Assembly: GCA_964016885.1 (NCBI GenBank)
Contig: OZ024748.1
Location: forward strand, 25,172,001 to 25,236,000
Length of the DNA stretch: 64,000 nt
Origin: Eledone cirrhosa
Lineage: Eukaryota
Reading direction: 5' to 3'
Shown here piece after piece: positions 15,395 to 60,390 of the stretch. Made by a program: the position numbers and the translations under genes. Every line of letters starts with the position of its first letter. Positions within the stretch are counted from its first letter, which is position 1. Below the pieces are notes generated by a model, which searched no databases, had not been told where the DNA came from, and saw nothing but the letters and a program-made list of their open reading frames with translations.

Positions 15395-15575
15395 GTAGAT
15401 AGATAGTTGGTTCTTGAACCGAGAACGATTGATGAGTTTTCAGTTGTTCGATCCCTCAATAATCAAATAACAAACATCTGTTATTGTTTTGTTCCGCCAT
15501 AACTGACGTCTGGCGAGTCGTTTATACGCACGGCAGGAGCTGTAACGTAACGCTTTGGTGGCGGTCTCTGTGTCT

Positions 15576-16272
15576 GTAGGGAGCGTGTATGTGTGTGAAG
15601 GGAGCGTGTATGTGTGTGTAGGGAGCGTGTATGTGTGTGAAGGGAGCGTGTATGTGTGTGTAGGGAGCGTGTATGTGTGTGAAGGGAGCGTGTATGTGTG
15701 TGTAGGGAGCGTGTATCTGTGTGAAGGGAGCGTGTATGTGTGTGTAGGGAGCGTGTATGTGTGTGTAGGGAACGTGTATGTGTGGGAAGGGAGCGTGTAT
15801 GTGTGTGTAGGGAGCGTGTATGTGTGTGAAGGGAGCGTGTATGTGTGGGAAGGGAGCGTGTATGTGTGTGTAGGGAGCGTGTATGTGTGTGTAGGGAGCG
15901 TGTATGTGTGTGAAGGGAGCGTGTATGTGTGTGTAGGGAGCGTGTATGTGTGTGTAGGGAACGTGTATGTGTGGGAAGGGAGCGTGTATGTGTGTGTAGG
16001 GAGCGTGTATGTGTGTGAAGGGAGCGTGTATGTGTGGGAAGGGAGCGTGTATGTGTGTGTAGGGAGCGTGTATGTGTGTGTAGGGAGCGTGTATGTGTGT
16101 GAAGGGAGCGTGTATGTGTGGGAAGGGAGCGTGTATGTGTGTGTAGGGAGCGTGTATGTGTGGGAAGGGAGCGTGTATGTGTGTGTAGGGAGCGTGTATG
16201 TGTGTGTAGGGAGCGTGTATGTGTGGGAAGGGAGCGTGTATGTGTGTGTAGGGAGCGTGTATGTATGTGTAG
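15576..16272. repeat. 21-bp minisatellite, about 33 copies
   Basis: Unit g(t/a)agggagcgtgtatgtgtg(t/g), derived from (TG)n. Confidence 0.96.
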
Positions 16273-17829
16273 GTGTTTGTGTAGGTCTCTGTGTCTGTGT
16301 GTGTAGGGAGCCTGTATATGTGTATGTGTGTGTAGGTGTTTGTGTATGTCTCTGTGAGTGTATGTGTGGAGAGGGGGTGGCGTATTTTAAGCTTCCGACC
16401 AGCCAGCTGATAAAACGACGTGGGTCTTTCTCTCACCGGTTGAAACCCTGCCAATACATTTACAGTATGTTAATGAGCCAAATCTCTTTCAGATTTACAC
16501 CCTTAAAAAAGAAAGAACACTTTGGATAATGGAGTCCTAGATACAACTTTGTCTGGAACAACAAAGACGAGATGGTAACGGCTGGAATGCCTTTGATCAG
16601 GTTTACTCAGTCAATGATGAACTACGGGAGATTTATGTCTAAGGAATTCAACATAGAATCATGATCCTTGTGAAAAGTTACTGTGTCATCAAAAACTGTC
16701 ACTGTGTCAACAAAGTGTTATTATAACCAGCAGAGCGGTTACTATGACAAAAAGTATCAAGACCAACGATTATTATGTTAGCAAGAAGTCATAACAAGTG
16801 GAAAGGTTTTTATATCATGACCTATAACAAAGAATTCAGGGACTGAAGAAAATAAAGTGCCCTGTTCAGGGACACAACATGCCACTGGGAATCGAACTCA
16901 TGGCCTTAAAACAAGAGATAAACTCCAGAGGAATTGCTTTTCGGCTGAAAATAATTTCGCATCGAATATAGAATATCTGTAATAGGAAAGAATTCAGTCA
17001 CAAAGAAGGATTTCTACAGCCTCTTCATTTTTATAGTGGCTGAATTTATAAAACAGTGTGGCATGTTTATATAATATATGAATCAAACATACAAAGCTTA
17101 TACTGTTTTAGAAGTAGCTACTGCTGTGTACCAGCTCCAGTAGTAACCTCACCAAAAACCCTCACCCATTCCTAAAAAACAATAACTCCTTTATTTATGA
17201 AACCCTCCTTAGATTGACAATGACTTAGAATAAGCTTTACTATGTCACTGTGCTTTTACTGTTATCAAACTGGCCTAAATTATATCAAATCTTTACTGAA
17301 AAGGTTTAGCTTTTGGTTGTTGTTTTTTGTTGTTTTTTTGTGGGGGGGGGGGTCTGTTTTTTTGTTTTTGTTTTTGTTTTTTACAACTCTAGTTCTGCAC
17401 TGAACAAACCGGCAAAACTTCTATTTAAAAGCCTCCTGGAACTCGCTACCTCACTACTAACCATAGCCATATCTTCCACCCAACCCGAAAACGAGACCTT
17501 GATAACCCAGAAACTAAATTCTCTTCGTCTAGAGAGTCCATGGCAGGTTTTGCTCTTTCATGTCTGAACGAACAAAATACAGATAAGACAAGTTAGTTTT
17601 AGTTTGCTAGCGTCCTCAGCTCATCTTCTGGTCGTCTGCTACTAACGTGTCTTAAAGCCACACGGATGTAATGGATCAATGAGGCGACTTGAAAAACTGA
17701 TAAAAATACATGTTATACACACAGCAGAAAGATTACTTGAAAGACAAGCGTTTATAACTCGTGTGTGTGTGTATGCGTATGCTTATGTGTTTGTATGTAT
17801 TTATGTATGAGTGTGTTGAACTTCCGTTG

Positions 17830-28255: not shown

Positions 28256-31200
28256 ACGCCACAGACAATGGTAGAACTGTACAGGTACATCTGGAATGGT
28301 AGACACCACAGACAATGGTAGAACTGTACAGGTACATCTGGAGTGGTAGACACCACAGACAATGGTAGAACTGTACAGGTACATCTGGAATGGTAGACAC
28401 CACAGACAATGGTAGAACTGTACAGGTACATCTGGAGTGGTAGACACCACAGACAATGGTAGAACTGTACAGGTACATCTGGAATGGTAGACACCACAGA
28501 CAATGGTAGAACTGTACAGGTACATCTGGAATGGTAGACACCACAGACAATGATAGAACTGTACAGGTACATCTGGAGTGGTAGACACCACAGACAATGG
28601 TAGAACTGTACAGGTACATCTGGAATGGTAGACACCACAGACAATGGTAGAACTGTACAGGTACATCTGGAATGGTAGACACCACAGACAATGGTAGAAC
28701 TGTACAGGTACATCTGGAGTGGTAGACACCACAGACAATGGTAGAACTGTACAGGTACATCTGGAATGGTAGACACCACAGACAATGGTAGAACTGTACA
28801 GGTACATCTGGAATGGTAGACACCACAGACAATGGTAGAACTGTACAGGTACATCTGGAGTGGTAGACACCACAGACAATGGTAGAACTGTACAGGTACA
28901 TCTGGAGTGGTAGACACCACAGACAATGGTAGAACTGTACAGGTACATCTGGAATGGTAGACACCACAGACAATGGTAGAACTGTACAGGTACATCTGGA
29001 GTGGTAGACACCACAGACAATGGTAGAACTGTACAGGTACATCTGGAGTGGTAGACACCACAGACAATGGTAGAACTGTACAGGTACATCTGGAATGGTA
29101 GACACCACAGACAATGGTAGAACTGTACAGGTACATCTGGAGTGGTAGACACCACAGACAATGGTAGAACTGTACAGGTACATCTGGAATGGTAGACACC
29201 ACAGACAATGGTAGAACTGTACAGGTACATCTGGAATGGTAGACGCCACAGACAATGGTAGAACTGTACAGGTACATCTGGAGTGGTAGACACCACAGAC
29301 AACGGTAGAACTGTACAGGTACATCTGGAATGGTAGACACCACAGACAATGGTAGAACTGTACAGGTACATCTGGAATGGTAGACGCCACAGACAATGGT
29401 AGAACTGTACAGGTACATCTGGAATGGTAGACGCCACAGACAATGGTAGAACTGTACAGGTACATCTGGAATGGTAGACACCACAGACAATGGTAGAACT
29501 CTACAGGTACATCTGGAATGGTAGACACCACAGACAATGGTAGAACTGTACAGGTACATCTGGAATGGTAGACGCCACAGACAATGGTAGAACTGTACAG
29601 GTACATCTGGAATGGTAGACGCCACAGACAATGGTAGAACTGTACAGGTACATCTGGAATGGTAGACGCCACAGACAATGGTAGAACTGTACAGGTACAT
29701 CTGGAATGGTAGACGCCACAGACAATGGTAGAACTGTACAGGTACATCTGGAATGGTAGACGCCACAGACAATGGTAGAACTGTACAGGTACATCTGGAA
29801 TGGTAGACGCCACAGACAATGGTAGAACTGTACAGGTACATCTGGAATGGTAGACACCACAGACAATGGTAGAACTGTACAGGTACATCTGGAATGGTAG
29901 ACGCCACAGACAATGGTAGAACTGTACAGGTACATCTGGAATGGTAGACGCCACAGACAATGGTAGAACTGTACAGGTACATCTGGAATGGTAGACGCCA
30001 CAGACAATGGTAGAACTGTACAGGTACATCTGGAATGGTAGACGCCACAGACAATGGTAGAACTGTACAGGTACATCTGGAATGGTAGACGCCACAGACA
30101 ATGGTAGAACTGTACAGGTACATCTGGAATGGTAGACACCACAGACAATGGTAGAACTGTACAGGTACATCTGGAATGGTAGACACCACAGACAATGGTA
30201 GAACTGTACAGGTACATCTGGAATGGTATACGCCACAGACAATGGTAGAACTGTACAGGTACATCTGGAATGGTAGACGCCACAGACAATGGTAGAACTG
30301 TACAGGTACATCTGGAATGGTAGACGCCACAGACAATGGTAGAACTGTACAGGTACATCTGGAATGGTAGACGCCACAGACAATGGTAGAACTGTACAGG
30401 TACATCTGGAGTGGTAGACACCACAGACAATGGTAGAACTGTACAGGTACATCTGGAATGGTAGACACCACAGACAATGGTAGAACTGTACAGGTACATC
30501 TGGAATGGTAGACACCACAGACAATGGCAGAACTGTACAGGTACATCTGGAATGGTAGACACCACAGACAATGGTAGAACTGTACAGGTACATCTGGAAT
30601 GGTAGACACCACAGACAATGGTAGAACTGTACAGGTACATCTGGAATGGTAGACACCACAGACAATGATAGAACTGTACAGGTACATCTGGAGTGGTAGA
30701 CACCACAGACAATGGTAGAACTGTACAGGTACATCTGGAATGGTAGACGCCACAGACAATGGTAGAACTGTACAGGTACATCTGGAGTGGTAGACACCAC
30801 AGACAATGGTAGAACTCTACAGGTACATCTGGAATGGTAGACACCACAGACAATGGTAGAACTGTACAGGTACATCTGGAATGGTAGACGCCACAGACAA
30901 TGGTAGAACTGTACAGGTACATCTGGAATGGTAGACGCCACAGACAATGGTAGAACTGTACAGGTACATCTGGAATGGTAGACGCCACAGACAATGGTAG
31001 AACTGTACAGGTACATCTGGAATGGTAGACGCCACAGACAATGGTAGAACTGTACAGGTACATCTGGAGTGGTAGACACCACAGACAATGGTAGAACTGT
31101 ACAGGTACATCTGGAATGGTAGACACCACAGACAATGGTAGAACTGTACAGGTACATCTGGAATGGTAGACACCACAGACAATGGCAGAACTGTACAGGT

Positions 31201-34200
31201 ACATCTGGAATGGTAGACACCACAGACAATGGTAGAACTGTACAGGTACATCTGGAATGGTAGACACCACAGACAATGGTAGAACTGTACAGGTACATCT
31301 GGAATGGTAGACACCACAGACAATGATAGAACTGTACAGGTACATCTGGAGTGGTAGACACCACAGACAATGGTAGAACTGTACAGGTACATCTGGAATG
31401 GTAGACGCCACAGACAATGGTAGAACTGTACAGGTACATCTGGAGTGGTAGACACCACAGACAATGGTAGAACTGTACAGGTACATCTGGAATGGTAGAC
31501 GCCACAGACAATGGTAGAACTGTACAGGTACATCTGGAGTGGTAGACACCACAGACAATGGTAGAACTGTACAGGTACATCTGGAATGGTAGACGCCACA
31601 GACAATGGTAGAACTGTACAGGTACATCTGGAGTGGTAGACACCACAGACAATGGTAGAACTGTACAGGTACATCTGGAATGGTAGACACCACAGACAAT
31701 GGTAGAACTGTACAGGTACATCTGGAGTGGTAGACACCACAGACAATGGTAGAACTGTACAGGTACATCTGGAATGGTAGACACCACAGACAATGGTAGA
31801 ACTGTACAGGTACATCTGGAATGGTAGACACCACAGACAATGGTAGAACTGTACAGGTACATCTGGAATGGTAGACACCACAGACAATGGTAGAACTGTA
31901 CAGGTACATCTGGAATGGTAGACACCACAGACAATAGTAGAACTGTACAGGTACATCTGGAATGGTAGACACCACAGACAATGGTAGAACTGTACAGGTA
32001 CATCTGGAATGGTAGACACCACAGACAATGGTAGAACTGTACAGGTACATCTGGAATGTTAGACACCACAGACAATGGTAGAACTGTACAGGTACATCTG
32101 GAATGGTAGACACCACAGACAATGGTAGAACTGTACAGGTACATCTGGAATGGTAGACACCACAGACAATGGTAGAACTGTACAGGTACATCTGGAATGG
32201 TAGACACCACAGACAATGATAGAACTGTACAGGTACATCTGGAATGGTAGACACCACAGACAATGGTAGAACTGTACAGGTACATCTGGAGTGGTAGACA
32301 CCACAGACAATGGTAGAACTGTACAGGTACATCTGGAATGGTAGACACCACAGACAATGGTAGAACTGTACAGGTACATCTGGAGTGGTAGACACCACAG
32401 ACAATGGTAGAACTGTACAGGTACATCTGGAGTGGTAGACACCACAGACAATGGTAGAACTGTACAGGTACATCTGGAATGGTAGACACCACAGACAATG
32501 GTAGAACTGTACAGGTACATCTGGAATGGTAGACACCACAGACAATGGTAGAACTGTACAGGTACATCTGGAATGGTAGACACCACAGACAATGGTAGAA
32601 CTGTACAGGTACATCTGGAATGGTAGACACCACAGACAATGGTAGAACTGTACAGGTACATCTGGAGTGGTAGACACCACAGACAATGGTAGAACTGTAC
32701 AGGTACATCTGGAATGGTAGACACCACAGACAATGGTAGAACTGTACAGGTACATCTGGAGTGGTAGACACCACAGACAATGGTAGAACTGTACAGGTAC
32801 ATCTGGAATGGTAGACACCACAGACAATGGTAGAACTGTACAGGTACATCTGGAATGGTAGACACCACAGACAATGGTAGAACTGTACAGGTACATCTGG
32901 AATGGTAGACACCACAGACAATGGTAGAACTGTACAGGTACATCTGGAATGGTAGACACCACAGACAATGGTAGAACTGTACAGGTACATCTGGAGTGGT
33001 AGACACCACAGACAATGGTAGAACTGTACAGGTACATCTGGAATGGTAGACACCACAGACAATGGTAGAACTGTACAGGTACATCTGGAATGGTAGACAC
33101 CACAGACAATGGTAGAACTGTACAGGTACATCTGGAATGGTAGATACCACAGACAATGGTAGAACTGTACAGGTACATCTGGAATGGTAGACACCACAGA
33201 CAATGGTAGAACTGTACAGGTACATCTGGAATGGTAGACGCCACAGACAATGGTAGAACTGTACAGGTACATCTGGAATGGTAGACACCACAGACAATGA
33301 TAGAACTGTACAGGTACATCTGGAATGGTAGACACCACAGACAATGGTAGAACTGTACAGGTACATCTGGAGTGGTAGACACCACAGACAATGGTAGAAC
33401 TGTACAGGTACATCTGGAATGGTAGACACCACAGACAATGATAGAACTGTACAGGTACATCTGGAGTGGTAGACACCACAGACAATGGTAGAACTGTACA
33501 GGTACATCTGGAATGGTAGACACCACAGACAATGGTAGAACTGTACAGGTACATCTGGAATGGTAGACACCACAGACAATGGTAGAACTGTACAGGTACA
33601 TCTGGAGTGGTAGACACCACAGACAATGGTAGAACTGTACAGGTACATCTGGAATGGTAGACACCACAGACAATGGTAGAACTGTACAGGTACATCTGGA
33701 ATGGTAGACACCACAGACAATGGTAGAACTGTACAGGTACATCTGGAATGGTAGACACCACAGACAATGGTAGAACTGTACAGGTACATCTGGAATGGTA
33801 GACACCACAGACAATGGTAGAACTGTACAGGTACATCTGGAATGGTAGACACCACAGACAATGGTAGAACTGTACAGGTACATCTGGAATGGTAGATACC
33901 ACAGACAATGGTAGAACTGTACAGGTACATCTGGAATGGTAGACACCACAGACAATGGTAGAACTGTACAGGTACATCTGGAATGGTAGACGCCACAGAC
34001 AATGGTAGAACTGTACAGGTACATCTGGAATGGTAGACACCACAGACAATGATAGAACTGTACAGGTACATCTGGAATGGTAGACACCACAGACAATGGT
34101 AGAACTGTACAGGTACATCTGGAGTGGTAGACACCACAGACAATGGTAGAACTGTACAGGTACATCTGGAATGGTAGACACCACAGACAATGATAGAACT

Positions 34201-34554
34201 GTACAGGTACATCTGGAGTGGTAGACACCACAGACAATGGTAGAACTGTACAGGTACATCTGGAATGGTAGACACCACAGACAATGGTAGAACTGTACAG
34301 GTACATCTGGAATGGTAGACACCACAGACAATGGTAGAACTGTACAGGTACATCTGGAGTGGTAGACACCACAGACAATGGTAGAACTGTACAGGTACAT
34401 CTGGAATGGTAGACACCACAGACAATGGTAGAACTGTACAGGTACATCTGGAATGGTAGACACCACAGACAATGGTAGAACTGTACAGGTACATCTGGAA
34501 TGGTAGACACCACAGACAATGGTAGAACTGTACAGGTACATCTGGAGTGGTAGA
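28256..34554. repeat. 47-bp tandem array, about 134 copies
   Basis: Unit ccacagacaatggtagaactgtacaggtacatctggaatggtagaca. The length (6299 bp) is essentially 134 x 47, and only point variants are seen. Confidence 0.99.
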
Positions 34555-38798: not shown

Positions 38799-39830
38799 AT
38801 CTCTAGGTCTGTCAGAACTCTTTAGTGTGTCACCAATAATCTCTAGGTCTGTAGCAACACTTTACTATGTCACCAATAATCTCTAGGTCTGTCGCAACAC
38901 TTTACTATGTCACCAATAATCTCTAGGTCTGTCGCAACACTTTACTATGTCACCAATAATCTCTAGGTCTATCAGAACTCTTTACTATGTCACCAATAAT
39001 CTCTAGGTCTGTCGCAACACTTTACTATGTCACCAATAATCTCTAGGTCTGTAGCAACACTTTACTATGTCACCAATAATCTCTAGGTCTGTAGCAACAC
39101 TTTACTATGTCACCAATAATCTCTAGGTCTGTAGCAACACTTTACTATGTCACCAATAATCTCTAGGTGTGTCACAACACTTTACTATGTCACCAATAAT
39201 CTCTAGGTCTGTCACAACACCTTACTATGTCACCAATAATCTCTAGGTCTATCAGAACTCTTTACTATGTCACCAATAATCTCTAGGTGTGTCACAACAC
39301 TTTACTATGTCACCAATAATCTCTAGGTGTGTCACAACACTTTACTGTCACCAATAATCTCTAGGTCTGTAGCAACACTTTACTATGTCACCAATAATCT
39401 CTAGGTGTGTCACAACACTTTACTATGTCACCAATAATCTCTAGGTGTGTCACAACACTTTACTATGTCACCAATAATCTCTAGGTGTGTCACAACACTT
39501 TACTATGTCACCAATAATCTCTAGGTGTGTCACAACACTAGTATGTCACCAATAATCTCTAGGTGTGTCACAACACTAGTATGTCACCAATACTCTCTAG
39601 GTCTGTCGCAACACTTTACTATGTCACCAATAATCTCTAGGTGTGTCACAACACTAGTATGTCACCAATAATCTCTAGGTGTGTCACAACACTAGTATGT
39701 CAGCAATACTCTCTAGGTCTGTCGCAACACTAGTATGCCACTCATGGTTTTTAAGTGTGTCGCAACACTAGTGTGTTAATAATAATGTTTAGGTGTCACA
39801 ACACTAGTGTCACCAATAATCACTCGGTCT
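38799..39830. repeat. 40-bp tandem array, about 26 copies, grading into 37-bp degenerate units
   Basis: Unit caccaataatctctaggtctgtagcaacactttactatgt. Confidence 0.97.
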
Positions 39831-40215: not shown

Positions 40216-42348
40216 TACAATAAACTCTGGTTAAGGTACCCAAGGCCCAGACTATATTAGGGTCATCTTACAGTACAGTAAACTCTGGTTAAAGTACCCA
40301 AGGCCCAGACTATATTAGGGTCATCTTACAGTACAGTAAACTCTGGTTAAAGTACCCAAGGCCCAGACTATATTAGGGTCATCTTACAGTACAGTAAACT
40401 CTGGTTAAAGTACCCAAGGCCCAGACTATATTAGGGTCATCTTACAGTACAGTAAACTCTGGTTAAAGTACCCAAGGCCCAGACTATATTAGGGTCATCT
40501 TACAGTACAGTAAACTCTGGTTAAAGTACCCAAGGCCCAGACTATATTAGGGTCATCTTACAGTACAGTAAACTCTGGTTAAGGTACCCAAGGCCCAGAC
40601 TATATTAGGGTCATCTTACAGTACAGTAAACTCTGGTTAAAGTACCCAAGGCCCAGACTATATTCGGGTCATCTTACAGTACAGTAAACTCTGGTTAAAG
40701 TACCCAAGGCCCAGACTATATTAGGGTCATCTTACAGTACAGTAAACTCTGGTTAAAGTACCCAAGGCCCAGACTATATTCGGGTCATCTTACAGTACAG
40801 TAAACTCTGGTTAAAGTACCCAAGGCCCAGACTATATTAGGGTCATCTTACAGTACAGTAAACTCTGGTTAAAGTACCCAAGGCCCAGACTATATTCGGG
40901 TCATCTTACAGTACAGTAAACTCTGGTTAAGGTACCCAAGGCCCAGGCTATATTCGGGTCATCTTACAGTAGAGTAAACTCTGGTTAAGGTACCCAAGGC
41001 CCAGGCTATATTCGGGTCATCTTACAGTACAGTAAACTCCGGTTAAGGTACCCAAGGCCCAGACTATATTAGGGTCATCTTACAGTACAGTAAACTCTGG
41101 TTAAAGTACCCAAGGCCCAGACTATATTAGGGTCATCTTACAGTACAGTAAACTCTGGTTAAGGTCCCCAAGGCCCAGGCTATATTAGGGTCATCTTACA
41201 GTACAGTAAACTCTGGTTAAAGTACCCAAGGCCCAGACTATATTAGGGTCATCTTACAGTACAGTAAACTCTGGTTAAGGTACCCAAGGCCCAGACTATA
41301 TTAGGGTCATCTTACAGTACAGTAAACTCTGGTTAAAGTACCCAAGGCCCAGGCTATATTCGGGTCATCTTACAGTAGAGTAAACTCTGGTTAAGGTACC
41401 CAAGGCCCAGGCTATATTAGGGTCATCTTACAGTACAGTAAACTCTGGTTAAAGTACCCAAGGCCCAGACTATATTCGGGTCATCTTACAGTACAGTAAA
41501 CTCTGGTTAAAGTACCCAAGGCCCAGACTATATTAGGGTCATCTTACAGTACAGTAAACTCTGGTTAAAGTACCCAAGGCCCAGACTATATTAGGGTCAT
41601 CTTACAGTACAGTAAACTCTGGTTAAGGTACCCAAGGCCCAGACTATATTAGGGTCATCTTACAGTACAGTAAACTCTGGTTAAAGTACCCAAGGCCCAG
41701 ACTATATTCGGGTCATCTTACAGTACAGTAAACTCTGGTTAAGGTACCCAAGGCCCAGGCTATATTCGGGTCATCTTACAGTACAGTAAACTCTGGTTAA
41801 GGTACCCAAGGCCCAGGCTATATTCGGGTCATCTTACAGTACAGTAAACTCCGGTTAAGGTACCCAAGGCCCAGACTATATTAGGGTCATCTTACAGTAC
41901 AGTAAACTCTGGTTAAAGTACCCAAGGCCCAGACTATATTAGGGTCATCTTACAGTACAGTAAACTCTGGTTAAGGTCCCCAAGGCCCAGGCTATATTAG
42001 GGTCATCTTACAGTACAGTAAACTCTGGTTAAAGTACCCAAGGCCCAGACTATATTAGGGTCATCTTACAGTACAGTAAACTCTGGTTAAGGTACCCAAG
42101 GCCCAGACTATATTAGGGTCATCTTACAGTACAGTAAACTCTGGTTAAAGTACCCAAGGCCCAGGCTATATTCGGGTCATCTTACAGTAGAGTAAACTCT
42201 GGTTAAGGTACCCAAGGCCCAGGCTATATTAGGGTCATCTTACAATAAACTCTGGTTAAGGTACCCAAGGCCCAGGCTATATTCGGGTCATCTTACAGTA
42301 GAGTAAACTCTGGTTAAGGTACCCAAGGCCCAGGTTATGTTGGGGTCA
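40216..42348. repeat. 58-bp tandem array, about 37 copies
   Basis: Unit agtaaactctggttaaagtacccaaggcccagactatattagggtcatcttacagtac. Confidence 0.98.
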
Positions 42349-47085: not shown

Positions 47086-49803
47086 ATATCATCATCATCA
47101 TCATCATCATCAACGTTTAACGTCCGTGTTCCACGCTTGCATGGGTTTGGACGGGGGTATTCCCACTTGAGGCAAGAGTGATTGTCTTGCTCGCATAGGA
47201 CTGTCTGGCAGGTTTTCTACAGCTGGATGCCCTTCCTAACACCAACCACATTTACAGTGTGGGGCTGGGAGGTTTTTACCGTGTTGCCTACACGGCCACA
47301 TTACAGCGTGGACTGTGTGTTTTTGTCGTGACACCTACACGATCTCATTTGTTTCGGCCTGGATGGCGTGGCACCGACATAACTTTACATAGAAGGGGGT
47401 GGTGTGGATGGGGTGGGGGTGGTGGGACGGGGTGTATTTTGTTAGAGATGCCTACTGGCTGTAGTAGGTTTTACTATGTATTTAGGTAAGGCGGGTCTTC
47501 TCTGATACTGAGTACCGCCAAAGGTCTCGGTCCAGTGACATTGTCTTGGAGAGGTGTAAGTGTGTGAGGTCGGAGTTTATCAGCTCGTCCCAGGTTTTCT
47601 AGGTCTGCCTATTCCGTGGCTACCGTCTATCTTTATTGCCCTGCACTTTGTTATACAGCTATCGACTTTCATGCGCATCACGTGTCCATACCAACGTAGC
47701 CTTCTCTCGAGTAAACAACATCTGATCCCTCTTATTTCTAATTTTTTCCTTAGTTCGTTTATGCTTTGCCGTTCACGTATATTACTGTTACACATCCAGC
47801 GGAGCATGCAAGCTTCGTTCCTCTCTAGTCTGCGTATATCCTCTGCACACAATGCCCAGGTCTCACTGCCATGCAACATTGCTGTTCGTAAGCAGGCATC
47901 ATACAACCTGCCTTTCATTTTTAGGGAGAACCCTTTAGCAGCTAATAGTGGTATAAGTTCTCTGAACTTTTTCCATCCAGTTCTGACTCTAGCTACTGTA
48001 CTTTCTGAGCACCCTCCCCCACTGCTGATTTTATCACCCAGGTAACGGAAGCTGTCCACTATTTCTATAGAGCCCTCTGCGCAGTTGTAAGAGCTAGTAT
48101 TTTGTGGGCACTTGCTGCTACTTATTGCACCAGAGCACCGGCCACATGTAAAATCTATGTTCTTAGTTAGCTTACCTGTGATCCCACTACATCTTTTATG
48201 CACCCATACTTTGCATTTGGGACATAAAATGGAGTTTCTACCTACGCCTTTCCTACACACTGAGCATGGCCATTTCCCAGAAGGGACCGCCGCCTTATTT
48301 TCTTTCCTACAAACTAGAACTTTAGTCTTAGCCAGGTTAATTTTAAGTCCTTTTGATTCTAGGCCATGCTTCCATGTTTGGAATTTCTTCTCTAGCTCGG
48401 CCATTGATTCAGCTATGAGTGTCAGGTCGTCTGCGTATAGGAGTTCCCATGGGCAGCCGGTCTTGAACTCCTCTGTTATAGCCTGAAGGGCAATAATAAA
48501 TAGTAGGGGGCTGAGAACAGAGCCCTGATGGACGCCAACTTTTACGCTAAACTCTTCACTATGTTCGTTGTTAATTCTAACCTTGCTGACTGTTTCTTTA
48601 TACATGGCTTGTATCGCTCTCACAAGCCATTCGTCAACACCTAGTTTTCTAAGAGCCCACCAGATAATGGAGCGGGGGACTCTGTCGAAGGCTTTCTCCA
48701 AGTCGACAAAAGCTAAGTTGAGGGGTTTACCTTTAGCTAGGTACTTCTCCTGTAGTTGACGTACAATGAAAAGAGCGTCTGTGGTACTTTTGCCTGACAC
48801 AAACCCGAACTGCATTTCATCTAGGTCAATTCTCTCTCTGATTAGTTGCGCTATTACTTTTTCCGTGACCTTCATGACCTGGTCGATTAATTTAATGCCT
48901 CTATAGTTACTCCTATCTAGGCCATCTCCTTTACCCTTATAACAGTTAACGATGATGCTGCTATGCCAGTCCTTCGGAACAACCCCATTCTGTACGACTT
49001 GGTTAACTATGCGAGTGACCATGGTGTGTCCCACCGTGCCAGATGCCTTCAGCATCTCAGCGACTATTTCCGAAGGCCCAGCCGCCTTACCCGTCTTCAT
49101 ATCCTTGATTGCCTTACTTATTATACTCCCCTCGACTAACACTGCTGGTCCCTCTATTGGGTCGATGTGGGGGAGACTGTCTTTCTCCCATTTATTCTCC
49201 TCATTTAGTAGCCTTTCATAGTGACACTTCCAAGCTACCTTCTTATCAGCGTCGGTGATGGCAAGTACGCCGTCATCATTAAGTACACACTTCTCCCCGA
49301 CAATATCACGGTTTTGCTTGACACATTGCCTAGCAATCCTGAACACCTCACGTTTTTGGTCCTCGCGTTGTAGAACATGCTTGAACTTTCTTTCCTCTGC
49401 TTCCCTTCTTGCGAAGTACACTTGTCTCCTAGCTTCCCTCCTGGCCACTTGATAGTCTTCTCTACTTCCCCCATTCCGCCATACTTTCCAAGCCTGCTTT
49501 TTGACCTTAATTGACTCCTCCACCTTACTGTTCCACCACCATGTTACTCTCCTCCTGCCTGCTGGCCTGCTCCAGCCACAGACTTCGTCTGTCGCCATCA
49601 GCAGGTTTGCTTTCAGAAATTCCCACTGTCCCTCTATATTGTCCGACTTTAAATGCTCTTCCTTACTGTCGAAAGCATCAAGTAATATGCTTTGAAATTT
49701 ATTTCTGGCTGTGGGGTCCTTTAGCTTTCATATTTTTCTCCTGAGGATAATCCTCTTCTGCTGTCGAGTACGTCTCGTCCTGACTATGAGGTCGCTAATT
49801 ATC
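47086..49803 (-). mobile_element. RTE-clade non-LTR retrotransposon, 5'-truncated, with a (TGA)n 3' tail
   Basis: Contains a 672-aa RT ORF, a 3' UTR and an (ATC)n tract at 47086-47112. The 5' end breaks off at about the end of the endonuclease region, next to (TA)n. Confidence 0.93.
47482..49800 (-). pseudogene. RTE reverse transcriptase ORF, nearly intact
   Basis: Motifs KGKGD..NYRGI, QFGF, AFVDLEKAFD, GVHQGSVLSP, LLYADD and RRLRWYGHV. Only two lesions are visible: an in-frame TGA at 49728-49730 and one missing A near 47595 (GRPRK/TWDE). Restoring the A extends the ORF to TAA at 47482. Confidence 0.9.
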
Positions 49804-55432: not shown

Positions 55433-56339
55433 CAGCTGTGTCAAAGACATGACAGCCTCCTTGGTACTGGTCCAAAAATAAAATGCACCGAAGCAACCCT
55501 CACTAGCAAGAAAAATAGATATTAAATGATGATGACTCTTAACATTCTGTAATTATTTACCGGAAAATATCTATAAAAAGATTTAATTCAAATGTTTATA
55601 GTATCTTTACTTGTTGACAGATCATTGAGAAACCTTTGTAGTAAACTAAAGTAATGGCTTAAATTCTTAATGTGATGCAGTCATCGTGCTGTTTTGTACT
55701 TTTCAAGAATGTCGCGTTAATGTGGTTTCATGTGGTACAGGACGCTACGAGTTAACCAGAAAACATTAGGATGACTTAGAAAAAGTTAAGGAATGAAAAA
55801 TATAGATGATTCAATGAAACAAAACTAGACATGAAGATTTGTCCATTGGTATATATATGTTTACAAAAATGTACATAAAATATTTCTCATTTTATCAAAT
55901 GAACTGCTATAAAGAATTCAATTTTTTTCTCTTTCCAAAATAAAAAAAAATATATTTACAAAAATAATACAATGATAAAAAAAATATTTTTACAATATAA
56001 AAAAATATTACTGGTACATATTAACCCCTTTACATTGGCACTAAGCCAGAAAAGAGAATATTGCTCAGTTGCAACAGTATATTTTATGTACATGTTTTAT
56101 GAATCCTCTGGAGTAGAATAATTTTGAACTCGTAATATATCAAAGGACAAGAAAATATCACATGGTCTTTTGCCCAGAACTACCAAATGCCATCGAACAC
56201 AGCCATCAAACACAGCCATCAAACACTGCCAACTTAATAGAAAATTGCAATGTACAACTTTTTTTTTCCATCACAACAGAAAATGTAATGTATTTAATAT
56301 AAATGTCACAAACCTTTATAACATAAAATAATAACAGCC

Positions 56340-56722
56340 ATTAAATCTAATTTTAAAAAGATTCCAGGATTTAAATCTGGGTTTTAAAAATAATCCAGTG
56401 TTTAAATCTTTCTTTTTTAAAGATTCCATCATTTAAGTCTGAATTTTAGTAAAAATTCCAATGTTTAAATCAAAATTCCAGTGTTGAAATCTGGGTTTTA
56501 AAAAATATTCTGGAATTTAAATCTGGGTTTTAAAAATATTCCAGTGTTTAAATGTGGTTTTAAAAAAGATTACATCATTCAAATCTGGGTTTTAAAGACT
56601 CCATCATTTAAATCTGGTTTTAAAAAATATTCCAGTGTTTAAATCTGAATTTTAAACATATTCCAGTGTTTAAATCTGAATTTTAAACATATTCCAGTGT
56701 TTAAATCTGGTTTTAAAAGATT
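56340..56722. repeat. Degenerate tandem repeat of about 29 bp, roughly 13 copies, downstream of CENP-A
   Basis: attccagtgtttaaatctgggttttaaaaa-like units. Confidence 0.88.
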
Positions 56723-56900
56723 ATATGGAGACTTGAAACAAATGATTTTTCTCTTAACATTTACTCATTTATCATTACACTAAATACATTGTTACTAGAG
56801 GCCTTCAAGCAATGAACATCAAAGAATTTGAAGAACTACTATTTTCTTATTACATACATAGTATGTGTACTAATAAGAAAAAATTAATAGAACATGCGTG

Positions 56901-56906
56901 TTTATT
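56901..56906 (-). promoter_or_regulatory. Candidate polyadenylation signal of the CENP-A-like gene
   Basis: AATAAA on the minus strand about 92 nt after the stop codon, with a second at 56980-56985. The AT-rich context makes chance matches common. Confidence 0.3.
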
Positions 56907-56997
56907 TTAATTTTAAAAAAATAAATTGATCAAAATTTTGTGGCACAAACATATTGTGGACATATGAAAGGAAAATAATTTTATTTTTTCTTATATT

Positions 56998-57231
56998 TCA
57001 AGGCCTCAGTTTTAAAACAAGTTTTATGTCAGTTGGAAAAAGTGTAACTCGCTTTGCATGTAAAGTACATAAATATGAATCAGCTAGAAGAGTGACTAAA
57101 TATACTTCTGATGCTTCCTGCAATGCCAATAGTGCAACACTTTGCCATCGGATGTCTGCTGCAAATTGTGAGCCAATTTCTTTCACTAGTCGCATGAATG
57201 GTAATTTCCGAAGTAATAGCCCACAAGATTT
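56998..57231 (-). CDS. CENPA: CENP-A/cenH3-like histone H3 variant, coding exon 2 (histone fold, 77 aa plus stop)
   Basis: A long polypyrimidine tract and acceptor TTGTTCTAG| precede [77 protein letters not shown]. This is an H3 fold with cenH3-type changes (Q68->M, F84->W, T107->S) and a CENP-A-like TLHAxRVTLFP segment. Confidence 0.92.
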
Positions 57232-57277
57232 CTAGAACAAAAAAGAAAAAAAAAATGTTCATTTAACTCTTAACATT

Positions 57278-57735
57278 CTTTTGTTACCTCATCATATTGA
57301 CATTTCAGTGGGTTTATTCATGCCAGTCACCAATCTGGTACTTTTCTCAGACCCATGAAGATTAGGCTTTTTTAAAGGCACCCTTTACTCGCCTCATCAT
57401 AGCTACATCACTGAGTTGCGAAAGTTTTCTTGGGAGCTAAAGGTCACTCATTGCTCCATCTCCTTTAGTAGTTTTCCACTCTTGGTCCAGGGTTCCTTAT
57501 TCATCTGGCAGGAGGCCGCTTATATCACAACTAACCATCATATCTGGTGGTCGTATTGCTATCCACTGCCTGCAACCAGTTTTCTACTAGAACAGCTTGG
57601 CTGGTCTCACTTGGGGATCCAGCCACATCAATTGACAACTGTTGCTTCTGACAGGACCAGTCGGGAGGCATGTTTGAGGACTGCCCCCATGACCCTTTCA
57701 GGAATAAGTAGGAGGAGAAGAGGACAAAGATGAAG
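57278..57735 (+). mobile_element. Short RTE-derived insertion with a 13-bp TSD, near the CENP-A acceptor
   Basis: Flanked by aactcttaacatt at 57265-57277 and 57736-57748. The 3' part matches the RTE 3' end at 59040-59157 and ends in a purine-rich tail. Confidence 0.72.
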
Positions 57736-58159
57736 AACTCTTAACATTGTGTAATTATTTAGCTGTTATGATGGGCATCTAGCCATTACCAGAATGGAAT
57801 ATATGAGTGAGACCTGTCATGACATGACAGATTGTTTACCCTATACAAATATGGAAAATAGATGTAAATCAGTTATGGTGATGATAATGATGGTGATGTT
57901 AATGATTTAACTACGAACATCAAAACAGAGGATGAAGAGGAAATAGAGTGATAAGTTTATATACAAAAGCAGATCAATTGGGACTGGCTTGGAGGAACAC
58001 TTTGAGGATGGGGGAGAGGGAATGTCTGAGAATGATGGCACGCCACCATCACAATAATAAATGTCATCATTACTACCAGTAGTAGGAATAGCCAAAGAAA
58101 TGTTACCACCGCCACCACCTCTAAAAGAAACCTCACCACTGCCACCACCACTAACACTA

Positions 58160-59160
58160 GTAACCAAACAAACCTTTCCTCCTCGCGAGGTGGAGAGAAT
58201 ACATTGCTGATCTCCTAAACTCGATCATAACAGCATCTTCAGATGTACACAAAGTGCATTTGGGAGTGGGGACTAATCTATCAGAAGCTGAGGTCATATG
58301 AGCAGTTAAAGAGCTCAAATGTGGCAAAGTCGCTGGGGAAGATGAAATCTGGCCCAAAATGTTAAAAGCCTTAAATAGAGAAGGTATTCCCTGGCTGACA
58401 TGTGTATACCGGTTAAACAATGGCAAACGGGAGTAATAATCCTAATTTTCTAAAAAGGAGACAAGAGAAACTGTTCTAATTACAGAGGGGTCTCATTGTT
58501 AAACCACCCTGGTAAAGCCTATGCTAAGTGTCTGGCAAACAGATACAGAGAGATTGTCGAATCCAAGATGAACAGTGCGTTTTTTTGTCTCGGACTCAGC
58601 ACAGCTGACCAAATATTCACACTGTGGCAGGTATTCGAGAAATCGTGGGAGTATTGCCAAGAGGCATATTCTTGTTTTGTAGACCTTGAAAATACATATG
58701 ACAGCGTTCCTCAAGACCTACTGTGGAAGGCTGTACAGGAGTATGGGATCGATGGTAAGTTTCTTGCTGCCTTGATGTCTCTATAGAAATGCCCAAGTAT
58801 TTGTATTTGGATAAATGGTGCTAAATCGAAAACCATTCAATGTGGAAGTTGGACTCTGCCAAGAATGCATACTGTCAGAGCCACTACATCGCCGAATTGA
58901 GAGATCACAGCTCCGATACTATGGGTATGTGGTTAGAATGTCTCAGGAAAGAATCACTGGACAGATTTTACAGCCAAAAACCAACCAGCAGGAGACCCAA
59001 GGGTAGACCACGAGCAACATGGTTGGATAACATTCATGAGCTTGGCTGGTAACGCTTGGGGATCCAGCCGGATCAGTTGTAAACGGTTGCTTCTGACATG
59101 ACTCGCTGTAAGAAGTGTTTAAGGACTCTTCCCCTACGACATTTCAGGAATAAGTGAGCT
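58160..59160 (+). mobile_element. Decayed, internally deleted RTE-type LINE in the CENP-A intron (antisense to the gene)
   Basis: Fragments KKGDKRNCSNYRG, CFVDLENTYDSVP, QLRYYGYVVRM and RPKGRPRATW, interrupted by stops and frameshifts. Confidence 0.82.
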
Positions 59161-59726
59161 AAGAACTTATTCCCTATCTGTGTCTATTTACCAACGCCAA
59201 CATCGTTGTCGGCCCCACAATCACCACCATGCTCACATTCTTCTTGAGTTACTTCCCTTAGTGTGAACTCGTAATTAAAAGTTATCTCCCTTGAACTATG
59301 TCTGTGTAATTTGGCGTTTCCCCGCCAAAATTATATTTCAAGCAGTCAATTTAATATTTTAATTCCAAATAGATTGTTTATTTCTATAGAAAGGGGGCAC
59401 TTACATTGATATGCTTTATTAAAATAACGCGTGGTAATACGGAAATAAACGATGTTTACGATTGAGAAGGTTGATGAAACTTTCACTTCTGACAGCTTTA
59501 TATGTTTTGTATATATTATACGTGTTTGTGTTTTCGTTCTTTAAGCATTATATTATTACATTTTTATACAACTGTGAATAAAAGGTAAAAAAAAAACCTA
59601 GATAGGAATGGGGAAAGGTAATACAAGTTGGTGAAACATAAATCAATATATCAGTACATATATTTATATATATAACCAAAGTTTATATGGTTCGTTGATT
59701 ATTCAACGAATACAATTTTACAATAG

Positions 59727-59787
<61 letters not shown>

Positions 59788-59913
59788 AGGTGCATTATTG
59801 GTTGTGTAAAAAGGTCCAATAACTTTATGTTAACAATATTAAGTTCTCAGCGCTTTTGTATATCTCCAATTCCATTCAAGGGAACAGCTAGTTGATGTAA
59901 AACGGAGTATCAG

Positions 59914-60146
59914 TATCAAAATGAAAATCCGAAGGCAAGGTAAAATTCCAATATGGGGGAATGAATTCTGTGAGAGAACATCGTTTTTTTTTTCTCCCTC
60001 ATATCAAGAATTTGAAGACAATTCATTTTCACCTGATGAGATCAGTGATAATCGATCATGGCTTCACAATCGATCTATCTCTTATTGAAACATGTCGTGA
60101 TTAAATGATTGGAATTTTACCTTGCCTTCGGATTTTCATTTTGATA
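59914..60146. repeat. 39-bp perfect inverted repeats enclosing a hammerhead
   Basis: 59914-59952 versus 60108-60146. The right arm abuts (TA)n(TG)n. Confidence 0.92.
60029..60100 (+). ncRNA. Type-I hammerhead ribozyme motif with extended stem II, antisense in the CENP-A intron
   Basis: tcac CTGATGA [imperfect hairpin of about 47 nt] GAAA catg TC gtga. The core is intact, with a GUC triplet and palindromic stem III (acatgt). Confidence 0.78.
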
Positions 60147-60219
60147 TATATATGTGTGTGTGTGTGCGCGCGCGCGCGCGAGTATATATATGTATATATT
60201 TAAAAAGTTCATAACAAAC

Positions 60220-60390
60220 CTGGTATTTTTGTATTTCTAATAGAGCCTTTAACCGCTGTGAGGTTTTCCGACGTTTATTTCTTGTTGAATGTCTACGTAT
60301 AGCCCTGTTATCATCAATTTCATCAAATGGCGATGTAGAACCGCTATCATCTAATGGTCGATTCGTAGGTGGATGTTTACAACGAACCAT
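60220..60390 (-). CDS. CENPA: CENP-A/cenH3-like histone H3 variant, coding exon 1 (57 codons: N-tail and alpha-N)
   Basis: ATG at 60390 opens MVRCKHPPTNRPLDDSGSTSPFDEIDDNRAIRRHSTRNKRRKTSQRLKALLEIQKYQ. The start resembles H3 MARTK and the end matches H3 ALREIRRYQ. It finishes at a phase-0 donor CAG|GTTTGT and joins exon 2 in frame. Confidence 0.88.

What the first reader, a model, noticed from the sequence alone, without database searches (positions are those of the whole stretch)
56998..60390. Atypical CENP-A-like histone: no loop 1 extension and a clipped C-terminus
Seen: a spliced 134-aa protein, split between two entries of the ORF track, with a divergent N-tail (acidic DDSGSTSPFDEIDD, then a basic patch) and cenH3 hallmarks (M68, W84, S107, RVTLFP). 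However, loop 1 ([12 protein letters not shown]) is the same length as in H3 (EIAQDFKTDLRF), and the protein ends LVLKLRP instead of LARRIRG plus a tail. Established: cenH3s usually have a longer loop 1, which contacts CENP-N, and a hydrophobic C-tail that binds CENP-C. Inference: either this lineage has a remodelled kinetochore interface, or this is a specialised (e.g. germline) cenH3 paralog or new H3 variant.
Basis: partly seen in the sequence, partly recalled or inferred. Interest (0 to 1): 0.75.

Follow-up and report, generated by a model that had tools for sequence, protein, structure and literature searches.

The report
Octopod centromere histone lacking reader surfaces
This is an intact, single-copy, spliced gene that likely encodes the centromere-marking histone of an octopus-type animal; like four other octopods it lacks the lengthened loop that kinetochore proteins grip in vertebrates, and it has also lost its tail, so its partners would have to read it in another, untested way.

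Summary
In detail: a two-exon, 134-aa H3 variant with a GT-AG intron. One contig of an unlabelled public run joins the exons at exactly this junction. Its closest relatives are Octopus and Argonauta proteins (76-81% identity in the fold), one annotated 'H3-like centromeric A'. It is the only cenH3 candidate found in the genome, and it departs from H3 at 10 of 10 cenH3-diagnostic columns, so a specialised paralog is unlikely. The H3-length loop 1 is not peculiar to this gene: 4 of 4 other octopod species share it, 0 of 7 non-cephalopod molluscan sequences do. It is therefore likely a derived octopod (or wider cephalopod) trait; Dictyostelium cenH3 is a published precedent. The one-residue tail is peculiar to this species (other octopods keep 3-4 residues). 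M18BP1- and CENP-L-like genes are present; CENP-C and CENP-N could not be assessed. Trees did not exclude a non-centromeric origin, and localisation is untested. A 2025 survey filed the Octopus orthologs as H3.3. The scan had no look-alike sequence; one unchecked note on another genome describes a short-loop cenH3. Verdict: new variant of a known kind, moderate interest.

The parts
60220..60390 (-). Exon 1 coding part: ATG, divergent N-tail, basic patch, alpha-N helix (57 aa)
   Evidence: covered 60220-60383 by an X4 contig; single place in the genome
60322..60345 (-). N-tail motif SG[ST][TL][ST]PF[DE] (residues 16-23), at the same place in all octopod orthologs
   Evidence: found in 6 of 464 fetched proteins, all octopod or this exon; a role is untested
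57232..60219 (-). Phase-0 GT-AG intron, 2,988 nt, with microsatellites and decayed reverse-transcriptase-like pieces
   Evidence: junction seen in the X4 contig
56998..57231 (-). Exon 2 coding part: histone fold (alpha1, loop 1, alpha2, loop 2, alpha3) and TGA stop
57145..57180 (-). E73..W84 span holding loop 1 ([12 protein letters not shown]), 12 residues as in H3
56998..57003 (-). One-residue tail (Pro) and stop; the next codons read N-I, like D-I in the Octopus tail, hinting at a nonsense change
   Evidence: the origin of the stop is inference, no ortholog DNA was available
56980..56985 (-). AATAAA just 3' of the stop (candidate polyadenylation signal)
   Evidence: use not tested

Best explanation
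This single-copy spliced gene likely encodes the only CENP-A (cenH3) of an octopod, and it has an H3-length loop 1 shared with other octopods plus a tail clipped to one residue. Shown: gene structure, junction in one contig, single copy, octopod-wide short loop, cenH3-type residues, an M18BP1-like and a CENP-L-like gene in the genome. Inferred: it pairs with H4 and forms tetramers (C110, H113, D123, L126, R131 are kept); M18BP1-dependent loading puts it at centromeres; loss of the RYRPGT motif and of R49 and R52 loosens the DNA ends. Inferred, about even odds: with no loop insertion and no hydrophobic tail, CENP-N/L and CENP-C/M18BP1 would rely on DNA, the H2A-H2B acidic patch, the changed loop 1/alpha2/alpha3 surface and perhaps the conserved N-tail motif, not on the vertebrate contacts.
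For: Top homologs are Octopus sinensis, O. vulgaris (named H3-like centromeric A), O. bimaculoides and Argonauta, 76-81% identical over H3 44-131 against 58% to H3. At 10 columns outside loop 1 where at least 80% of 24 non-octopod cenH3s differ from H3, it is H3-like at 0 and has a state seen in cenH3s at 8. Control: of 409 scored proteins, the 6 rows with 9 of 9 departures and a 12-residue loop are all octopod; the other 153 rows with 9 of 9 have loops of 13 or more. Tree: octopod clade 100/99, on the cenH3 side of the H3 split 99/94. No second cenH3. SANTA match over the Pfam cut-off plus SANT-like exons downstream; CENP-L exon over the cut-off. Loop 1 is 13-14 in 7 of 7 non-cephalopod molluscs and 13-20 in 24 of 24 non-octopod cenH3s. 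Precedents: Dictyostelium cenH3 without loop extension localises to centromeres (PMC2995078, section read); in budding yeast CENP-N-L is reported to bind DNA rather than loop 1 (PMC7475651, passage).
Against: No localisation data. The tree groups octopods with vertebrates and a scorpion, not with other molluscs, on a long stem (0.64), so its position may be an artefact. AU tests reject neither octopod + molluscan cenH3 (p 0.118) nor octopod + H3 (p 0.069). Against PDB sequences the best 60 matches are all H3/H3.3. W84 alone also occurs in unnamed 12-loop H3-like proteins. The 24 cenH3s were my pick from the hits, and the diagnostic columns were defined on them. Genome searches score only 25-32 candidates and can miss a gene cut into small exons. 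The CENP-L call rests on one exon; two neighbouring candidate exons gave no Pfam match.
Confidence: 0.85

Rival explanations
1. It is a non-centromeric H3 variant of octopods that arose from H3/H3.3 and converged on cenH3-like residues; the true cenH3 is lost or was missed. The short loop would then simply be inherited from H3.
For: Loop and Octopus tail lengths equal H3; octopod + H3 is not rejected, p 0.069; NCBI names three orthologs H3.3-like and PMC12210499 Table S2 lists the O. sinensis and O. vulgaris genes as H3.3-3 with no coleoid CENP-A row; cenH3 loss is reported in chaetognaths and rotifers (PMC12460157, passages).
Against: 10 of 10 diagnostic columns differ from H3; the N-tail bears no resemblance to that of H3; an M18BP1-like loading factor persists; ordinary H3.3 genes exist separately; the free tree puts it with cenH3s.
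Confidence: 0.08
2. It is a specialised (for example germline) cenH3 paralog beside an undetected ordinary CENP-A.
For: Two CENP-A rows are listed for oyster and for one abalone (PMC12210499 Table S2); genome searches are candidate-limited.
Against: One copy of each exon; a long-loop nemertean CENP-A query found only this locus, H3, H3.3 and decayed H3 copies among 28 matches; one gene per octopod species appeared in the protein searches.
Confidence: 0.04
3. The clipped tail is an error, a rare allele or a sign of decay, and the working protein has the Octopus-type four-residue tail.
For: The codons after the stop read N-I, matching D-I of the Octopus tail; it is the shortest tail among 208 cenH3-like rows; O. 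vulgaris has an annotated alternative 3' form (P0102).
Against: Three large runs hold all sampled words across the stop, though they may be the assembly's own reads, and X4 from a second sample label holds the share expected for an intact stop region; the frame is otherwise intact and conserved; no GT in exon 2 scores above 3 of 7 as a donor.
Confidence: 0.03

Closest known systems
Octopod orthologs: O. vulgaris CAI9735256.1 ('H3-like centromeric A'), O. sinensis XP_029647017.1, O. bimaculoides XP_014769574.1, Argonauta hians GAB1603733.1
   Same: 12-residue E73..W84 span, W84, S107, M/I68, L128, T122, C58, no RYRPGT motif, N-tail SG..PF motif; 76-81% identity in the fold
   Different: They keep 3-4 tail residues with at least one bulky hydrophobic residue (NGDI, NCYT, DFY); this protein keeps only P
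Non-cephalopod molluscan cenH3 (Haliotis, incl. XP_046577991.1 = Hrub_CENP-A-2 of PMC12210499; Liolophura; Mercenaria; Pecten; Mizuhopecten)
   Same: W84 and loss of Q68, R49, T107
   Different: Loop span 13-14; they keep R-Y/F-RPGT, K122, R128, G132 and tails of 4-9 residues; 53-57% identity
Vertebrate CENP-A
   Same: W84, non-Q68, RVTLFP, divergent N-tail
   Different: Human CENP-A has the two-residue RG insertion read by CENP-N (PMC5777823, passages) and a hydrophobic tail read by CENP-C (PMC7475651, passages); chicken KNL2 reads both (10.1101/2022.06.24.497480, abstract). Both features are absent here, and the column of human K124 is T
Dictyostelium DdCenH3 (H3v1)
   Same: A cenH3 without extended loop 1, shown to localise to centromeres (PMC2995078, section 14 read)
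   Different: Amoebozoan, 619 aa with a very long N-terminal domain; an independent case

Membership tests
CENP-A / cenH3 | H3-type histone fold, about 50-65% identical to H3 | tested here: met
   Pfam Histone E=3.3e-25; 58% to own H3; helical fold model, mean pLDDT 78
CENP-A / cenH3 | N-tail not alignable to H3 | tested here: met
   Exon 1 matches only its own place in the genome and none of the H3 genes
CENP-A / cenH3 | Loss of Q68, F84 to W, loss of T107 and related substitutions | tested here: met
   10 of 10 diagnostic columns non-H3, 8 with cenH3 states; control
CENP-A / cenH3 | Loop 1 longer than in H3 (typical, not obligatory: PMC2995078) | tested here: not met
   12 residues as in H3, against 13-20 in 24 of 24 non-octopod cenH3s
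CENP-A / cenH3 | Hydrophobic C-terminal tail (typical; the two scallop sequences also lack a bulky hydrophobe) | tested here: not met
   One residue, P
CENP-A / cenH3 | Descent from the cenH3 lineage | tested here: inconclusive
   cenH3 side in the free tree; AU p 0.118 and 0.069 for the two constrained trees
CENP-A / cenH3 | Low copy number and co-occurrence with M18BP1/KNL2 and CCAN | tested here: met
   One copy; M18BP1-like gene; CENP-L-like exon. CENP-C, -N, -I, -M not assessable (Nuf2 control failed)
CENP-A / cenH3 | Localises to centromeres and nucleates the kinetochore (the deciding feature) | not testable with these tools
   needs antibody staining or CUT&Tag
Histone H3.3 | Near-identity to H3 with changes at 31, 87, 89, 90 only (PMC12210499, passage) | tested here: not met
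   58% identity to own H3.3; separate H3.3 genes exist

The most novel reading that the evidence does not exclude
Octopods have rebuilt the centromere's reading surface: their only CENP-A has shed the loop 1 insertion, the K124-equivalent lysine and the otherwise invariant R128 and G132, this lineage has also shed the tail, yet M18BP1 and CENP-L persist, so the kinetochore recognises the centromeric nucleosome by a new contact such as the octopod-specific SG..PF N-tail motif.
Probability: 0.3. Interest if true: 0.65.

Novelty: new variant of a known kind. Interest (0 to 1): 0.45.

Why it matters
In vertebrates CENP-N, CENP-C and KNL2 tell CENP-A from H3 by loop 1 and the C-tail. An animal cenH3 with neither, in a genome that keeps M18BP1- and CENP-L-like genes, is a natural test of how centromere identity is read. 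It also corrects an annotation gap: a 2025 survey lists no coleoid CENP-A and files the Octopus orthologs as H3.3. The unique N-tail is a ready epitope for mapping octopod centromeres, for which unchecked notes of this scan name several competing satellite candidates in the same genome. The weight is moderate: a short-loop cenH3 is already known from Dictyostelium, and one ortholog already bears a CENP-A name in NCBI.

Tried and rejected
Run search: no RNA holder listed; X1 laid nothing on exon 1, which shows nothing. Pfam searches of the genome for CENP-N, the CENP-C cupin, CENP-I and CENP-M found nothing, but the Nuf2 control also found nothing while Ndc80 was found: these blanks are uninformative and I do not claim loss. 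A pattern scan of 170 kb around the M18BP1-like gene found no credible CENP-C-like motif; the one look-alike lies in another frame of a LINE; an intron or a longer gene could hide it. Two further candidate CENP-L exons gave no Pfam match; the Atlas gave no usable hit. The 50%-representative search returned mostly fused or extended H3s. No squid, cuttlefish or Nautilus cenH3 appeared among the listed hits, so the loop loss cannot be dated within cephalopods. dN/dS was not possible without ortholog DNA. The monomer model merges alpha2 and loop 2 and says nothing on partner binding; no fold search or complex job was run. Paper searches found no study of octopod cenH3 or kinetochores; subscription papers are not covered. 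The FASTA supplements and figures of PMC12210499 could not be read; its text reports CENP-A expression for four species including A. fangsiao, so an octopod CENP-A may appear in a figure.

Full report
Observation. On the minus strand, exon 1 (60390-60220) ends at CAG|GT and exon 2 (57231-56998) begins after a polypyrimidine tract and AG; together they give 134 aa and a TGA stop. The E73..W84 span is 12 residues, as in this genome's own H3, and one residue follows R131 instead of four.

Splicing and stop. No listed run is on record as RNA. Run X4 is small (88 million letters of contigs) and has one 716-nt contig that covers 60220-60383 and then continues with the first 30 nt of exon 2. Both exons occur once in the assembly, so a processed copy does not explain the joined form; I infer a transcript. 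This is one contig from one study. X4 holds 0.85 of the words of 56800-57300, the share expected (0.853) if it carries exon 2, the stop and the 3' UTR without the intron. No GT in exon 2 scores above 3 of 7 as a donor.

Relatives. The best hits are proteins of Octopus sinensis, O. vulgaris, O. bimaculoides and Argonauta hians, 76-81% identical over H3 positions 44-131, against 58% to H3 and 53-57% to other molluscan cenH3s. The window is thus likely from an octopod. The O. vulgaris protein is named 'H3-like centromeric A' in NCBI; two others are named H3.3-like there, and the third in one source.

Loop 1 and tail across species. All 4 other octopod species have the 12-residue span. All 7 non-cephalopod molluscan sequences (three Haliotis, Liolophura, Mercenaria, Pecten, Mizuhopecten) have 13-14, and all 24 non-octopod cenH3s that I picked from the hits have 13-20. 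The short loop is therefore likely derived, on the octopod branch or earlier in cephalopods; no squid or Nautilus sequence was seen. Other octopod-wide changes are loss of the RYRPGT motif, T58C, E105S/A, K122T (the column of human K124), R128L and loss of G132; R128 and G132 are invariant in the 24 others. The tails are NGDI, NGDI, NCYT and DFY in the other octopods and P here, the shortest of 208 cenH3-like rows. The codons after the stop read N-I, like the Octopus D-I, which suggests one nonsense change (inference). The scallop tails (GASD) also lack a bulky hydrophobic residue. An N-tail motif SG[ST][TL][ST]PF[DE] occurs in 6 of 464 fetched proteins, all octopod or this exon.

Is it cenH3? 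At 10 columns outside loop 1 where at least 80% of the 24 cenH3s differ from H3, the protein is never H3-like and has a cenH3 state at 8. As a control I scored 409 of 465 proteins (56 dropped for missing or ambiguous anchors) at nine of these columns: the 6 rows with 9 of 9 and a 12-residue loop are all octopod (five species, one with two isoforms); the other 153 rows with 9 of 9 have longer loops. The sample is rich in vertebrates. The tree (34 rows, 89 columns) gives an octopod clade at 100/99 on the cenH3 side (99/94), but beside vertebrates and a scorpion on a long stem. AU tests reject neither a molluscan cenH3 clade (p 0.118) nor a grouping with H3 (p 0.069), so trees are inconclusive. 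The best 60 PDB sequence matches are all H3 or H3.3, which does not discriminate.

Paralogs. Exon 2 gave 23 genome matches: this locus and 22 H3, H3.3 or decayed H3 pieces. A long-loop nemertean CENP-A gave 28 matches; the 5 new ones are decayed H3 pieces. Only 25-32 candidates are scored per search, so a gene in very small exons could be missed.

Partners. A SANTA exon over the Pfam cut-off, followed by SANT-like exons, marks an M18BP1/KNL2-like gene on C3 (the SANT likeness is my reading from recalled motif shape). One exon on C6 matches CENP-L over the cut-off. Searches for CENP-N, -C, -I and -M were blank, but so was the Nuf2 control, so nothing follows from them.

Mechanism. Shown: gene, junction, copy number, comparative pattern. 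Inferred from established nucleosome structure (recalled): the kept C110, H113, D123, L126 and R131 allow a tetramer with H4, and loss of R49, R52 and RYRPGT loosens the DNA ends. In human cells CENP-N reads the RG insertion and about 15 bp of DNA (PMC5777823, passages), CENP-C reads the tail and the acidic patch (PMC7475651, passages), and chicken KNL2 reads both features (10.1101/2022.06.24.497480, abstract). Without them, recognition would shift to DNA, the acidic patch, the altered loop 1/alpha2/alpha3 surface or the N-tail. There are precedents: budding-yeast CENP-N-L is reported to bind DNA rather than loop 1, and either terminus suffices for viability in human cells (PMC4347640, passage citing Fachinetti 2013). 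I put this step at about even odds.

What is known. Dictyostelium cenH3 lacks the loop extension and localises to centromeres (PMC2995078, section 14); PMC11633173 calls the longer loop a frequent feature (passages). PMC12210499 (passages and Table S2 rows) has 16 CENP-A rows, including Nautilus but none of its five coleoids, and files XP_029647017.1 and CAI9735255.1 as H3.3-3; its FASTA files and figures were not readable. PMC9252888, PMC12460157 and PMC4080450 were seen as passages. Searches found no paper on octopod cenH3. The scan's own index had no look-alike sequence; notes are unchecked leads.

Verdict. Real gene; likely the octopod CENP-A ortholog (0.85); two typical but non-obligatory family features are not met, and the deciding feature, centromeric localisation, is untested. 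New variant of a known kind; interest 0.45.

Noticed in passing
window 28259-34554: Array of a 47-bp unit, 134 copies, 98% matches; it produces the very long repetitive open frames there.
   Followed up: no
window 38799-39731, 40216-42348, 15569-16273: Further minisatellites of 40, 58 and 21 bp.
   Followed up: no
window 47580-49727 (-): 715-aa open frame that looks like a LINE reverse transcriptase; close copies lie in introns of the M18BP1-like gene.
   Followed up: no
window 56325-56722: Degenerate 31-bp tandem repeat starting about 280 nt 3' of the stop; if the X4 contig is collinear it would end near 56680, at the edge of this repeat.
   Followed up: no
G000:C3:262,780,000-262,807,000 (L030, L035, L036, L050): M18BP1/KNL2-like gene with SANTA and SANT-like exons; no CENP-C-like motif found in 170 kb.
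   Followed up: partly
G000:C6:40,621,382-40,621,534 (L052): CENP-L-like exon over the Pfam cut-off; neighbouring candidate exons unconfirmed.
   Followed up: partly
G000:C20:10.02 Mb and C28:126.69 Mb (L031-L034): Two separate Ndc80-like loci, each with two matching exons: a possible duplication.
   Followed up: no
L013, L014 (C2) and L021/L023 (C22): H3.3-type sequence occurs both as two intronless neighbouring copies and as an intron-containing gene.
   Followed up: no
P0446, P0460, P0373 (database proteins): Scallop and abalone cenH3-like proteins are named 'histone H3.3-like' in NCBI; PMC12210499 Table S2 has no CENP-A row for Pecten or Mizuhopecten.
   Followed up: partly
P0102 (database protein): An annotated O. 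vulgaris isoform replaces the end of alpha2 onward with unrelated sequence; it may be an annotation artefact.
   Followed up: no
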